A stretch of DNA of 64,000 nucleotides from a virus. Where the stretch lies: positions 1 through 64,000 of IMG/VR virus record IMGVR_UViG_3300020183_000001. One strand, 5' to 3'. This document shows positions 9,156-10,900 of the stretch, one piece after another. The position numbers and the translations under genes were made by a program. Under the pieces are notes generated by a model that made no database searches, was not told the origin of the DNA, and saw only the letters and a program-made list of their open reading frames with translations. Numbering within the stretch: the first letter of the stretch is position 1; each line of letters starts with the position of its first letter.

Positions 9156-9194
9156 CCTCAAGTACAATAGGTAAATAGTTGGTTGGGTCTGTGC

Positions 9195-9479
9195 GTGGCG
9201 CAAGACGATAGTAAGTACACAAAACCAGAGTTACGTGAACGAATTAAAAATCGCGTAATGGCTGGTACCAAAGGTGGGAAGGCGGGCCAATGGAGTGCTA
9301 GGAAGGCTCAACTTGTGGCACAAGAATACAAAGAAGCTGGCGGTGGATACAAAGGTGGCAAGGGCGAGAAACAAAAAGATTTAGAGAAGTGGGGCAAAGA
9401 GAAATGGTCCACTAAAGATGAATATGAAAAGAGGCAGAAAGCTAAGTCTGCTGCTAAAAAATACAAGGAGTCAAAGTAA
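9195..9479 (+). CDS. DUF5872-like basic protein, N-terminal part
   Basis: YTKPELRERIK...GGKAGQWSARKAQL..EY...GGGY. Confidence 0.75.
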   Translation: MAQDDSKYTKPELRERIKNRVMAGTKGGKAGQWSARKAQLVAQEYKEAGGGYKGGKGEKQKDLEKWGKEKWSTKDEYEKRQKAKSAAKKYKESK

Positions 9480-9688
9480 TGGCTGTCGATAAAGCTATCC
9501 AACCTGGGCATACTAAGCGATACTTACCAGAGAAAGCATGGGCTTCTTTATCAAAAGAAGAACGTGAGAAAACTGATCGCAAAAAGAAAGAAGCTAGTAA
9601 GTCCGGTAAACAATTTGTACCTAACACCAAGGCCGCCAAAGAGGCTGGCAAAAAAGCAAGACAATCTAAACCAACGAAAAAGAAGTGA
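9479..9688 (+). CDS. DUF5872-like basic protein, C-terminal part
   Basis: RYLPEKAWASLS..E...T.RKK...GKQFVPN; TAATG coupling to the previous gene. Confidence 0.7.
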   Translation: MAVDKAIQPGHTKRYLPEKAWASLSKEEREKTDRKKKEASKSGKQFVPNTKAAKEAGKKARQSKPTKKK

Positions 9689-9717
9689 TTTATAATTAAC
9701 AAAGAATAAGTATTCCA

Positions 9718-9888
9718 ATGGAAAAGAAAAAGCCTGTTCCTCCCAAAGGTAAAGCAATGCCCCGGAAAGGCAAAGAAGCTGCAGCTAAAAACAAAGGTGG
9801 CGCAACTGACAAACAAGCTGCTGCCCGTGACAAGTTTAAAGAAATGATTGCGAAAAAGAAAGAAGCTGCCGCCAAGAAGAAAAAATAA
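9718..9888 (+). CDS. Lys/Ala-rich basic protein (56 aa, not in ORF track)
   Basis: MEKKKPVPPKGK...AAAKKKK; TATAAT at 9691. Confidence 0.7.
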   Translation: MEKKKPVPPKGKAMPRKGKEAAAKNKGGATDKQAAARDKFKEMIAKKKEAAAKKKK

Positions 9889-9900
9889 CCTATACTTAAA

Positions 9901-9967
9901 CTGCTCAAAATCCTAAGGAGGGATTCCGAAAGTTCGATGTCCTGGCTTGAGCAACCAGGATTTTTTT
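9901..9967 (+). ncRNA. candidate small pseudoknotted RNA ending in an intrinsic terminator
   Basis: TATACT at 9891; 5' TGCTCAA is complementary to TTGAGCA in the TCCTGG/CCAGGA hairpin loop; followed by T7. Confidence 0.45.
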
Positions 9968-9975
9968 GTTATAAT
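9967..9975 (+). promoter_or_regulatory. extended -10 promoter TGTTATAAT
   Basis: Perfect TGnTATAAT upstream of a non-coding hairpin cluster. Confidence 0.7.
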
Positions 9976-9988
9976 TTGAGAGATAGAG

Positions 9989-10194
9989 ACCAGGTCCCTG
10001 TGCGCGTTGAGCACATAGCTCAGAAGGCGACACACCTGGTCCATCTACCACCCCTACTGCTCTGCCGGTAGGGTTCCAGCTCAGATACGCTTTATCGTTT
10101 TTGAGTCTGTGCTAAGTCCTACTTCGGTAGGCCAGGGATTTGATCACCCCTGCGTTGACCCCCTAAGCCTCTCAACGATGCTCAAACCTGGGGG
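9989..10194 (+). ncRNA. cluster of consecutive stem-loops, candidate phage sRNA(s)
   Basis: ACCAGGT/ACCTGGT, CCCTAC/GTAGGG, CCTAC-TTCG-GTAGG, CAGGG/CCCTG, CCCCC/GGGGG; no credible ORF. Confidence 0.55.
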
Positions 10195-10199
10195 CACAC

Positions 10200-10271
10200 C
10201 GACCGTTAGTCCATTGGTAAGGACACCCCGACAAGGGAGTTGGATAGCTGGTTCGATTCCAGTCCGGTCGA
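10200..10271 (+). tRNA. atypical tRNA-like element with a truncated anticodon arm
   Basis: Acceptor CGACCG/CGGTCG, D arm GTCC-ATTGGTAA-GGAC, T arm GCTGG-TTCGATT-CCAGT; anticodon arm only CCC-CGACAA-GGG; no encoded CCA. Confidence 0.6.
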
Positions 10272-10607
10272 TTACTTACCAAACAATCGTTTAACGCGAT
10301 TAACAAGATCCATCACACGTCCAGTGATGTTGACACTACGTTTCCAACTGCCTAACTCTGGTTGGTAACAGATAATTTCCCAGTCAGGAAAGTTGTAATC
10401 ATTATCAAACTTTCCTGTGAACATGTCATATGATCTGTAGTACGCCGTGCGTAATTCCCAATATTGTCCCCAGCCCAGATAAAAGGATCCGTCATCACAC
10501 CCGTCTGGATTAAACCAAGTCAGCTCCAGTTGACCTAATTTAATCTTTCCATAATCTGCCCCTGGGTCAATACGCAGAAATAGTAAGTAGGTATCTTCCG
10601 GTTCCAT
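10272..10607 (-). CDS. hypothetical protein
   Basis: 111-aa ORF convergent on the tRNA-like element. Confidence 0.6.
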   Translation of the reverse strand: MEPEDTYLLFLRIDPGADYGKIKLGQLELTWFNPDGCDDGSFYLGWGQYWELRTAYYRSYDMFTGKFDNDYNFPDWEIICYQPELGSWKRSVNITGRVMDLVNRVKRLFGK

Positions 10608-10651: not shown

Positions 10652-10900
10652 GTGCCATCAACCAAAAGCACACTTCAACGAAACAAAGAAAAAGTTTTGG
10701 AGTACAAAAAAACGTTAGCTTGTAAACGTTGTGGACTAACCGATTACCGCGTATTAGATTTTCACCACAAAGGAGATAAAGATAAAAGTGTATCAGAACT
10801 TTTAACTCAAGGCTACGCTTGGCGGCGTATCCAAGAAGAGATCGACAAATGTATTCCGTTATGCGCTAACTGTCATCGGTTAGAACATTGGGTTAATTAA
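10652..10900 (+). CDS. small HNH endonuclease
   Basis: CKRCG...LDFHH...EIDKCIPLCANCHRLEH. Confidence 0.85.
   Translation: MPSTKSTLQRNKEKVLEYKKTLACKRCGLTDYRVLDFHHKGDKDKSVSELLTQGYAWRRIQEEIDKCIPLCANCHRLEHWVN

What the first reader, a model, noticed from the sequence alone, without database searches (positions are those of the whole stretch)
9891..10271. Promoter-driven non-coding RNA island: candidate decoy / anti-defence RNAs
Seen: two -10 elements (TATACT 9891, TGTTATAAT 9967) precede about 370 nt with no credible ORF, packed with at least seven stem-loops and ending in a tRNA-like element that could provide processing sites. Complementary words recur (TGCTCAA/TTGAGCA, CGTTGAG/CTCAACG), allowing long-range pairing. 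Established: some phages carry RNA antitoxin mimics (ToxI-like) and CRISPR-repeat mimics. Inference: this is a polycistronic sRNA cassette of that kind.
Basis: partly seen in the sequence, partly recalled or inferred. Interest (0 to 1): 0.7.

Follow-up and report, generated by a model that had tools for sequence, protein, structure and literature searches.

The report
Phage copy of AbiF antitoxin RNA
A lake cyanophage carries, behind its own promoter, a protein-free chain of folded RNAs that includes a toxin-less copy of the small RNA bacteria use to keep their AbiF suicide nuclease switched off, followed by a tRNA look-alike, so it is probably an RNA anti-defence device.

Summary
The island is real. 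A terminator (9940-9967) overlaps a conserved promoter (TTGAGC-17-TGnTATAAT, 9947-9975). Behind it lie about 290 nt without a conserved ORF: five hairpin modules, an Rfam abiF RNA (RF03085, 10159-10195, 53.1 bits against a cut-off of 37) and, 4 nt later, a tRNA-like RNA (10200-10271) with a mini anticodon arm.

The complete 82.6-kb phage has no Abi_2/AbiF gene. Well-formed abiF motifs sit differently in viruses and bacteria:
- Viral contigs: a tRNA follows 3-9 nt later at 62 of 107 sites, and an AbiF-like gene lies nearby at 2.
- Bacterial genomes: 1 of 94 and 52 of 94.

abiF RNA is a published type III antitoxin of the AbiF HEPN RNase and works in trans. My best reading (about 0.5) is an orphan antitoxin mimic that is released by tRNA-processing enzymes.

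Not shown: transcription, binding, and whether the cyanobacterial host has AbiF.

Earlier agents of this scan reported the same kind of cassette on other cyanophage DNA. In print I found only an unexplained 'abiF sRNA' annotation in phage S-CREM1.

The parts
9891..9896 (+). TATACT, a -10-like hexamer right after the stop codon of the 56-aa Lys-rich gene. It is not the island's promoter.
   Evidence: Sequence. The promoter scan does not call it. A -10-like hexamer stands at the same place in L314, L053, L340 and S-EIVl. A terminator lies between it and the island.
9940..9967 (+). Intrinsic terminator of the upstream operon: stem 9940-9945/9955-9960, loop CTTGAGCAA, then seven T.
   Evidence: Sequence and fold. 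The stem changes on both sides in L251 and L314 (TCCCGG/CCGGGA against TCCTGG/CCAGGA).
9947..9975 (+). Sigma-70-type promoter with extended -10: TTGAGC, 17 nt, TG-n-TATAAT. The predicted start is near 9982.
   Evidence: 10 of 12 matches, TG present. Identical in L077, L251, L292 and L335; TATACT in L300 and L314. The start site is inferred, not measured.
9988..10041 (+). HP1: a long hairpin (GACCAGGU/ACCUGGUC) with an inner stem UGAGC/GCUCA (10008-10012/10018-10022).
   Evidence: Fold. The inner stem becomes UAGGC/GCCUA in L335, two compensatory pairs. It is shortened in L053. No Rfam match.
10052..10073 (+). HP2: an 8-bp hairpin (CCCUACUG/CGGUAGGG).
   Evidence: Fold. Present in L077, L300 and L314, absent from L335. 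Too little variation to test pairing.
10080..10105 (+). HP3: a hairpin (CUCAGA...UUUGAG).
   Evidence: Fold. Present in L077, L251, L292, L300 and L335; another module replaces it in L314 and L341. Nearly invariant, so untested.
10114..10152 (+). HP4-HP5 module: AAGUCC, hairpin 10118-10131 with a UUCG loop, GGCC, then hairpin 10133-10152 with a UUGAUC loop. In lake phages it usually sits directly 5' of abiF.
   Evidence: RNAalifold on 17 sequences: 9 of 13 pairs have compensatory changes. In a viral scan with its pattern, 21 of 27 stretches have abiF or a variant of it next (counted by eye from the print). Seen at 1 of 94 well-formed bacterial sites, the phage-like L217.
10159..10195 (+). abiF RNA motif (Rfam RF03085): P1 10159-10163/10190-10194, inner stem AGC/GCU, loop CUCUCAACGAU, 3' bulge CAAACC.
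   Evidence: 53.1 bits against a gathering score of 37; E 4.8e-7 for the 64-kb window. Alignment to the consensus. It is the only copy in the 82.6-kb genome. Covariation in phage copies.
10196..10199 (+). Four-nucleotide linker between abiF and the tRNA-like RNA.
   Evidence: Sequence. In viral contigs the gap from the end of P1 to the tRNA is 3-9 nt in all 62 of the 62 sites where a tRNA follows.
10200..10271 (+). tRNA-like RNA: a 6-bp acceptor stem and standard D and T arms. The anticodon arm is replaced by a 4-bp stem with a bulged A and a GACAA pentaloop. No CCA is encoded.
   Evidence: ARAGORN 'tRNA-???'. The best tRNA-clan score is tRNA-Sec at 23.5 bits, below its cut-off of 47. In 31 homologues 98.5% of cells pair, 14 of 19 pairs are compensatory, and all 4 mini-arm pairs covary.

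Best explanation
The island is a promoter-driven, protein-free RNA cassette of an S-EIV1-like lake cyanophage. Its recognisable working part is an orphan copy of the abiF RNA, the type III antitoxin that binds and blocks the AbiF (Abi_2, HEPN) abortive-infection RNase.

Proposed mechanism (inferred):
1. The phage transcribes the cassette from its own sigma-70-type promoter.
2. RNase P cuts at the 5' end of the tRNA-like RNA, 4 nt after abiF, and other tRNA-processing enzymes trim the rest. This releases a stable abiF hairpin, probably together with the HP4-HP5 module.
3. This RNA keeps host AbiF inhibited when the host's own labile antitoxin falls during infection, so the abortive response does not fire.

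Shown here: family membership of the RNA, absence of a toxin gene, the promoter and terminator anatomy, structural conservation of the modules, and the phage-specific abiF-tRNA arrangement. Inferred: transcription, processing, binding to AbiF, and presence of AbiF in the host.
For: Identity and orphan status:
- abiF (RF03085) scores above gathering at 10159-10195 and matches the consensus loop at every position.
- No Abi_2 (PF07751) match at E<=1 in the complete, terminally repeated 82,633-bp genome.
- Flanking ORFs give no HEPN or Abi hit.

Phage copies against bacterial copies:
- Of 107 well-formed motifs in viral contigs, a tRNA starts 3-9 nt later at 62 (14 anticodon types) and an AbiF-like ORF lies within 3 kb at 2.
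- Of 94 well-formed motifs in bacterial genomes, the figures are 1 and 52.
- Abi_2 is found in 1 of 100 viral records, and in 0 of the 10 that are at least 90% complete.
- A T-loop motif lies at +45..+85 downstream in 63 of 118 viral sites, against 3 of 118 in the mirror window upstream.
- The same abiF-then-tRNA layout occurs in S-SZBM1, S-CREM1, S-SRM01 and Mycobacterium phage Lolly9.
- In a sampled actinobacterial order, all 3 of 3 abiF hits (in 3 of 151 genomes) sit directly upstream of AbiF-like ORFs.

Structure: phage copies keep the fold through compensatory changes.

Published work:
- RCd22, which carries abiF motifs, neutralises AbiF in cis and in trans by direct binding (bioRxiv 10.1101/2025.04.15.648962; abstract and passages).

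Variation: the cassette is accessory and modular. Relatives swap modules between the same promoter and the same tRNA-like RNA, and L340 and L355 have none. Counter-defence loci typically vary in this way.
Against: - Host AbiF was not examined; I could not reach any cyanobacterial genome.
- In 73 metagenome stretches with the cyanophage-type motif, no AbiF-like ORF lay nearby. So no host copy of this variant was seen.
- No usable expression data (contigs only).
- The tight link to tRNA genes could mean a role in tRNA biology rather than in defence.
- The cultured relative S-EIVl has only a disrupted remnant, with no abiF match even at E<=10.
- Invariance of the loop in my alignment A1 follows from the search pattern and is not evidence.
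- Many of the 62 tRNA-linked sites (42 are tRNA-Arg UCU) may be one phage lineage.
Confidence: 0.5

Rival explanations
1. The abiF-like hairpin is a cis-acting processing, stability or insulator element of phage tRNA and tRNA-like transcripts and has nothing to do with AbiF. For example, it could be a 5' leader structure that guides RNase P or RNase E or protects the precursor.
For: A tRNA follows at a fixed 3-9 nt at 62 of 107 viral motifs. In the window it sits 4 nt before the tRNA-like RNA. Relatives L340 and L355 make the tRNA-like RNA from the same promoter without any module, so the tRNA-like RNA is the constant product.
Against: The loop is the one found next to AbiF genes in bacteria. 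Bacteria almost never place it beside tRNAs (1 of 94). 45 of 107 viral motifs have no adjacent tRNA called by ARAGORN. A mere processing hairpin would not need an 18-nt conserved loop shared across phyla.
Confidence: 0.15
2. Combined tRNA-nuclease countermeasure. AbiF-type HEPN RNases cut tRNAs, and the phage pairs the antidote RNA with spare tRNAs. In this phage the partner is an uncleavable tRNA look-alike that acts as a second decoy.
For: abiF sits inside tRNA arrays. The tRNA-like RNA keeps acceptor, D and T arms but has a strongly covarying mini arm in place of the anticodon loop. Target-activated Cas13a, described as a descendant of AbiF, cuts tRNA anticodons (passage in 10.1101/2025.04.15.648962 citing Jain et al. 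2024).
Against: AbiF's cellular targets are not known from anything I read. The tRNA-like RNA mostly occurs without abiF: an abiF core lies within 120 nt upstream at 9 of 52 sites. There is no test of binding.
Confidence: 0.12
3. The phage RNA works with a protein other than host AbiF. It could partner an unrecognised phage-encoded toxin (a phage TA or exclusion module), or it could redirect a host nuclease for the phage's benefit.
For: Several neighbouring ORFs have no family. AbiF processes its own ncRNA (PMC12737573, passage), so RNA-protein partnerships in this family can be more than simple inhibition.
Against: No Abi_2 or HEPN signal in the genome. No conserved protein gene travels with the motif across phage lineages; the neighbours are tRNAs and other RNA modules.
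Confidence: 0.08
4. The motif is a hitch-hiking relic: an RNA module shuffled between phages, perhaps with the help of nearby homing endonucleases, that has no current function in this phage.
For: Modules come and go between close relatives. S-EIVl carries a disrupted copy. An HNH-like ORF lies 380 nt downstream (below Pfam's cut-off).
Against: Stems are kept by compensatory changes across many lineages. The motif is intact at 53 bits and stands behind a conserved promoter.
Confidence: 0.07

Closest known systems
abiF RNA motif (Rfam RF03085), also called AbiFr of Prevotellaceae AbiF and RCd22 of Clostridioides difficile: the type III antitoxin of AbiF
   Same: Same RNA family by covariance-model score and by loop sequence. 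Same two-stem fold.
   Different: There is no toxin gene. The copy is encoded by a lytic-type phage behind its own promoter, fused to other RNA modules and a tRNA-like RNA. RCd22 carries two motifs and a terminator and is the leader of abiF.
Pseudo-ToxI and hijacked ToxI of Pectobacterium phage PhiTE, an RNA antitoxin mimic against ToxN
   Same: A phage-encoded RNA that resembles a type III antitoxin and would neutralise an abortive-infection RNase.
   Different: A different toxin family (ToxN against the HEPN protein AbiF). PhiTE's mimic arose as escape mutants in the laboratory, whereas this RNA is a widespread natural fixture of phage tRNA regions. Activity here is untested.
The 'abiF sRNA' annotated in cyanophage S-CREM1 (PMC9964418)
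   Same: Same motif, 4-5 nt before a tRNA, in a cyanophage RNA-gene cluster.
   Different: The passages I read call it a conserved sRNA that is probably functional during infection. They offer no mechanism and do not mention the missing toxin gene or the tRNA linkage.
RNA anti-CRISPRs (Racr, solitary repeat units) of phages
   Same: Phage RNAs that imitate the RNA partner of a defence nuclease. AbiF is described as the ancestor of Cas13 (PMC12737573).
   Different: No CRISPR repeat is involved. The target would be a toxin-antitoxin RNase, not a Cas effector.
Stable small RNAs in the T4 tRNA gene cluster (species 1 and 2 RNAs), matured by tRNA-processing enzymes (recalled)
   Same: Non-tRNA RNAs embedded in a phage tRNA transcription unit and presumably released by RNase P-type processing.
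   Different: No sequence relation was tested, and the function of the T4 RNAs is also unknown.

Membership tests
abiF RNA (Rfam RF03085) | Covariance-model score at or above the curated gathering score (37 bits) | tested here: met
   53.1 bits, full length 1-37, E 4.8e-7 for the window. 0 of 14 control genomes ring.
abiF RNA (Rfam RF03085) | Six-pair outer stem, three-pair inner stem, conserved CUCUCAACGAU loop and CAAA bulge | tested here: met
   Alignment (5 of 6 outer pairs; one U-U). In 42 distinct phage copies 93.1% of cells pair, 7 of 9 pairs change on both sides, and 0 of 500 shuffles reach this.
Type III toxin-antitoxin system AbiF/abiF | An adjacent gene for the Abi_2/HEPN toxin | tested here: not met
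   No PF07751 match at E<=1 in the whole 82.6-kb genome. Neighbouring ORFs give no such hit. So this is not a TA system but an orphan antitoxin-like RNA.
Type III toxin-antitoxin system AbiF/abiF | The RNA binds and neutralises the toxin | not testable with these tools
   Needs co-expression, EMSA or co-purification.
Phage antitoxin mimic (pseudo-ToxI kind) | The host of the phage carries the cognate toxin and RNA | not tested
   No cyanobacterial genome could be reached. 0 of 73 lake and other metagenome stretches with this motif variant lay beside an AbiF-like ORF. In an actinobacterial order, 3 of 151 genomes have abiF RNA and each copy is beside an AbiF-like ORF.
tRNA (Rfam RF00005) | Model score at or above 29 bits and a 7-nt anticodon loop on a 5-bp stem | tested here: not met
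   No RF00005 match. The best in the clan is tRNA-Sec at 23.5 bits. ARAGORN gives a two-base 'anticodon'. The arm is 4 bp with a bulged A and a 5-nt loop. Homologues in L115 and L053 do pass 29 bits.
tRNA (Rfam RF00005) | Acceptor, D and T arms with a T-loop of the UUCGAUU type | tested here: met
   the acceptor stem is 95% paired with 6 of 6 pairs compensatory; the D and T stems are 100% paired.
RNA anti-CRISPR (solitary repeat unit) | Similarity to a CRISPR repeat of the host | not tested
   No host repeats were available. Rfam gave no CRISPR-DR match in 9700-10500 at E<=10.

The most novel reading that the evidence does not exclude
Orphan AbiF-antitoxin RNAs are a general phage counter-defence that is built into tRNA operons, from cyanophages to mycobacteriophages. 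tRNA-processing enzymes release the decoy, and the phage delivers it together with spare tRNAs or uncleavable tRNA mimics because AbiF-type HEPN RNases, the ancestors of Cas13, kill by cutting tRNAs. This cassette would then be a two-part RNA antidote: an active-site blocker and a substrate decoy.
Probability: 0.15. Interest if true: 0.85.

Novelty: new variant of a known kind. Interest (0 to 1): 0.62.

Why it matters
AbiF is a widespread abortive-infection RNase and is reported to be the ancestor of Cas13. A natural, trans-acting RNA inhibitor carried by phages would matter in three ways:
- It would be a new class of RNA anti-defence.
- It would explain some of the unexplained small RNAs in phage tRNA clusters.
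- It would offer compact RNA inhibitors of HEPN nucleases.

The same motif occurs in cultured mycobacteriophages (65 records matched a 42-nt blastn query; Rfam confirmed the motif in the two I checked, Redno2 and Lolly9) and in cultured cyanophages (S-CREM1, S-SZBM1, S-SRM01). The idea can therefore be tested with ordinary phage genetics.

Tried and rejected
Expression. The look-up of sequencing runs listed 24 runs, and one is on record as RNA (X23). I laid X23, X22, X24 and the DNA run X1. All are contigs. In X23, pieces lie only on 10129-10301, and one 147-nt contig spans 10158-10301. X22 and X24 may be DNA. Contigs cannot show transcription, ends or strand. The breaks at 10160, 10193, 10207 and 10244 occur in the DNA run too, so they are assembly branch points caused by shared modules. 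I draw no conclusion on expression or habitat from this.

Host AbiF. I could not reach a cyanobacterial genome.
- 'of' takes only a handle.
- Protein searches with S-PM2 CpeT and with the window's Dps-like protein returned hits that were on short contigs or named as phage; none was recognisably from a host genome.
- tblastn of an AbiF-like ORF against plasmids gave 506 records, but the ten organism names shown include no cyanobacterium.
- A blastn of the motif against plasmids gave one convincing hit, in Piscirickettsia.
- Paper searches for AbiD or Abi2 in Synechococcus or cyanobacteria found nothing useful.

Long-range pairing. This is rejected for TTGAGCA/TGCTCAA. In L077 the two words become TTGGGCA and TGCACAA, which no longer match. 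L053 lacks the inner part of HP1. In L335 the word covaries with its local partner. GCGUUGA (10152-10158) can pair with the abiF loop UCAACG in the minimum-energy fold, but L314 has a different sequence there. I treat that pairing as lineage-specific or fortuitous.

Second abiF copy. None was found in 9700-10500 at E<=10.

Other Rfam families. No wcaG, manA or ToxI match in the window. S-EIVl gave no abiF match at E<=10.

Literature. Searches found no paper that proposes phage abiF RNAs as anti-AbiF decoys. The main text of Weinberg 2017 (PMC5737381) does not contain 'abiF'. Supplements are closed and may describe the motif's phage copies. I could not read Zilberzwige-Tal et al. 2025 and know it only through PMC12737573 and PMC13064643.

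Rows dropped.
- A1 uses 43 of 55 sequences (the window's copy plus 42 of the 54 unique phage motifs). The 12 left out are mostly of a length other than 36 nt.
- A2 uses 29 of the 54 unique tRNA-like sequences, chosen by eye for diversity, plus the window's own copy and the copy in L001, which I added by hand (31 rows).
- L107-L125 (19 records) were not searched for Abi_2.
- 'Well-formed' excludes 14 of 121 viral sites and 29 of 123 bacterial sites that lack the stems.
Full report
**What the window is.** The window is the first 64 kb of an 82,633-bp IMG/VR virus record with direct terminal repeats, rated complete. The nearest named phage is Synechococcus phage S-EIVl from an arctic lake, at 76% identity over part of the query. 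A search with the window's Dps-like protein found 544 proteins at E<=1e-8 on contigs of at most about 85 kb, so this phage lineage is large. DNA runs that hold the stretch are lake and freshwater metagenomes.

**Anatomy.**
- The 56-aa Lys-rich gene ends at 9888.
- TATACT (9891) follows at once.
- A hairpin 9940-9960 with seven T is the operon's terminator.
- Its loop holds TTGAGC, the -35 box of a promoter whose extended -10, TGTTATAAT, is at 9967-9975 (10 of 12 matches, TG present).
- From about 9982 the + strand reads HP1 (9988-10041), HP2 (10052-10073), HP3 (10080-10105), HP4-HP5 (10114-10152), abiF (10159-10195), a 4-nt linker and a tRNA-like RNA (10200-10271).
- A convergent 111-aa ORF starts at 10607 and ends at 10272.
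- The 296-nt RNA folds at -105.8 kcal/mol, z = -2.58.

**Identification.** Rfam at gathering thresholds finds two things in the 64 kb: a tRNA-Leu elsewhere, and abiF (RF03085) at 10159-10195 (53.1 bits, cut-off 37, E 4.8e-7). The alignment matches the consensus loop CUCUCAACGAUGCUCAAA letter for letter. It is the only copy in the genome, and the same search rings in 0 of 14 control genomes. No Abi_2 (PF07751) match at E<=1 exists in the genome. Nine flanking ORFs give only DUF5872, a weak HNH, ferritin and a glycosyltransferase.

**What abiF RNA is, from papers.**
- The C. difficile preprint 10.1101/2025.04.15.648962 (abstract, outline and passages) shows that RCd22, which carries two abiF motifs, neutralises the AbiF toxin in cis and in trans by direct binding. 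Stem-breaking mutations abolish this and compensatory ones do not.
- Two reviews (PMC12737573; PMC13064643; passages only) report the following from Zilberzwige-Tal et al. 2025, which I could not read. The ncRNA blocks the HEPN active site. AbiF is placed at the root of Cas13. [quoted passage not shown]
- The S-CREM1 paper (PMC9964418, passages) annotates an 'abiF sRNA' in that cyanophage without a mechanism. A 2025 review repeats this (PMC12197685).

**Phage copies against bacterial copies.** I kept only sites whose outer stem pairs at 5 of 6 positions or better and whose inner stem pairs at 3 of 3.

| Set | Well-formed sites | ARAGORN tRNA starting 3-9 nt after the motif | AbiF-like ORF within 3 kb |
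|---|---|---|---|
| Viral | 107 of 121 | 62 | 2 |
| Bacterial | 94 of 123 | 1 | 52 |

- The AbiF-like ORFs were found with an HMM that I built from these loci, seeded on the one Pfam-confirmed case.
- The 62 viral tRNAs span 14 anticodon types; 42 are tRNA-Arg UCU.
- The single bacterial tRNA case is L217, a 2.2-kb phage-like contig in an Aquiluna MAG.
- Of the 52 bacterial AbiF-like ORFs, 42 lie upstream and 10 downstream on the same strand.
- Pfam Abi_2 itself is found in 1 of 100 viral records, and in 0 of the 10 rated at least 90% complete.
- A simple T-loop motif lies 45-85 nt downstream in 63 of 118 viral sites, against 3 of 118 in the mirror window upstream and 1 of 115 bacterial sites.
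- Rfam confirms abiF followed within 4-6 nt by a tRNA in S-SZBM1, S-CREM1, S-SRM01 and Mycobacterium phage Lolly9. It also confirms abiF in Redno2, L077, L053 and L115.
- A blastn of the motif hits 81 phage records, 65 of them Mycobacterium phages.
- As a stand-in for a host group, I sampled 151 genomes of the order of a Corynebacterium sp. genome. Three have abiF RNA, and all three copies sit directly upstream of an AbiF-like ORF.

**Structure.**
- In 42 distinct phage abiF copies 93.1% of cells pair, 7 of 9 pairs change on both sides, 0 of 500 shuffles reach this, and slid controls fall to 39-61%. The inner pair 8-24 occurs as A-U, U-A, C-G and G-C. Loop invariance in this alignment follows from the search pattern. 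Variants with changed loops do turn up through the HP4-HP5 scan.
- The tRNA-like RNA belongs to a family spread through cyanomyoviruses such as S-PM2 and S-RIM8 and through S-EIV1-like phages. In 31 sequences 98.5% of cells pair and 14 of 19 pairs are compensatory. The anticodon arm is a 4-bp stem with a bulged A and a GACAA loop, and all four of its pairs covary.
- Most copies of the tRNA-like RNA are not next to abiF: an abiF core lies within 120 nt upstream at 9 of 52 sites. It is therefore an independent module.
- HP4-HP5 is also real, with 9 of 13 pairs compensatory. It usually precedes abiF or a variant of it: 21 of 27 viral stretches, counted by eye.

**Modularity.** Close relatives keep the same upstream gene, terminator, promoter and tRNA-like RNA but differ in what lies between.
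- L077, L251 and L292 add two modules.
- L300 adds one.
- L335 lacks HP2.
- L314 and L341 replace HP3.
- L340 and L355 go straight from the promoter to the tRNA-like RNA.
- S-EIVl has a P1 stem and the 3' half of the loop separated by an insertion of about 60 nt. Rfam does not call it even at E<=10.

These insertions and deletions, and the loss of the ATG in L077, rule out the 44-aa and 61-aa ORFs as genes.

- TTGAGC at 9947 is the -35 box.
- TTGAGCA at 10007 pairs locally (UGAGC/GCUCA) and becomes UAGGC/GCCUA in L335.
- In L077 it no longer complements the abiF loop.

Long-range pairing is not supported.

**Mechanism.** The RNA is a member of the abiF family without a toxin. It stands behind its own promoter and is placed exactly where RNase P cleavage of the next tRNA or tRNA-like RNA would define its 3' end. 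I therefore favour an antitoxin mimic that keeps host AbiF silent during infection.

The weak points are these:
- Host AbiF is unverified.
- No AbiF-like ORF lies beside any of 73 metagenome stretches with this motif variant.
- There are no expression data.
- The tRNA linkage might instead point to a tRNA-related role.

**Earlier notes of this scan.** Follow-up agents reported 'phage RNA arrays mimicking AbiF antitoxins' in other cyanophages, and one of those windows shares 44 of 98 words with this stretch. They also state that Cyanobium-type hosts carry such leaders in front of AbiF genes. I could not test that, and it is not counted as evidence here. I had reached my reading before these look-ups. 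They led me to examine a second module, HP4-HP5. I found that module at only 1 of 94 well-formed bacterial sites, the phage-like L217.

Noticed in passing
window 10200-10271; L004 2493-2565; L005 2493-2565; 54 unique sequences: A cyanophage-wide family of tRNA-shaped RNAs whose anticodon arm is a 4-bp stem with a bulged A and an invariant GACAA pentaloop. All four arm pairs covary. It has no Rfam family of its own, and ARAGORN calls it tRNA-??? or a spurious tRNA-His or tRNA-Leu. In one lake DNA run a 117-nt contig of its core has depth 1338, against 8-15 for the flanks.
   Followed up: partly
L246 1501-1537 (Mycobacterium phage Redno2); L247 1497-1534 (Lolly9): Rfam-level abiF motifs without an annotated feature in cultured mycobacteriophages. 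65 Mycobacterium phage records match by blastn. In Lolly9 tRNA-Asn starts 5 nt later. This is a ready laboratory system.
   Followed up: partly
L004 2418-2492 (S-PM2): S-PM2 has the HP4-HP5 module followed by a different hairpin (GGGGAG-UCCUCUAACA-CUCCCC) where abiF would be, then the tRNA-like RNA. A similar AGUCCUCUAACACUUGG element replaces HP3 in L314 and L341. It could be a reduced abiF relative or a separate module.
   Followed up: no
bacterial loci L126-L245: In Bacteroidales the abiF RNA looks like a separate small gene. A TAnnTTTG-type promoter motif stands about 10 nt before the stem and a T-run follows it. The AbiF-like ORF is more often upstream (42) than downstream (10) on the same strand.
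   Followed up: no
window 9183-9888; L248 1067-1255: Three small Lys/Ala-rich ORFs (98, 69 and 56 aa; one has a weak DUF5872 hit) precede the cassette. In S-SRM01 a CDS annotated 'histone H1' also stands just upstream of its abiF motif.
   Followed up: no
window 10652-10900: An 82-aa ORF with a CxxC...HH...CxxCH pattern and a sub-threshold HNH hit (E 8e-4) lies 380 nt downstream of the cassette. A homing endonuclease here might help shuffle modules.
   Followed up: no
window 9903-9908 and 9947-9952: GCUCAA just after TATACT is complementary to the terminator loop UUGAGC. Both words are kept in L053 and L314, but neither varies, so pairing cannot be judged. The loop word is also the -35 box.
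   Followed up: partly
L217 (2,217-nt contig filed in an Aquiluna MAG): This contig carries HP4-HP5, abiF and a tRNA-Ile in the phage arrangement. It is probably a phage fragment binned into a bacterial MAG.
   Followed up: no
L053 3873-3950; L001 2990-3090: A second tRNA-shaped element follows the first in L053 and S-EIVl. The same type (GUCCGAG..AAUUGGA) follows abiF directly in L093 and L120, and ARAGORN does not call it.
   Followed up: no
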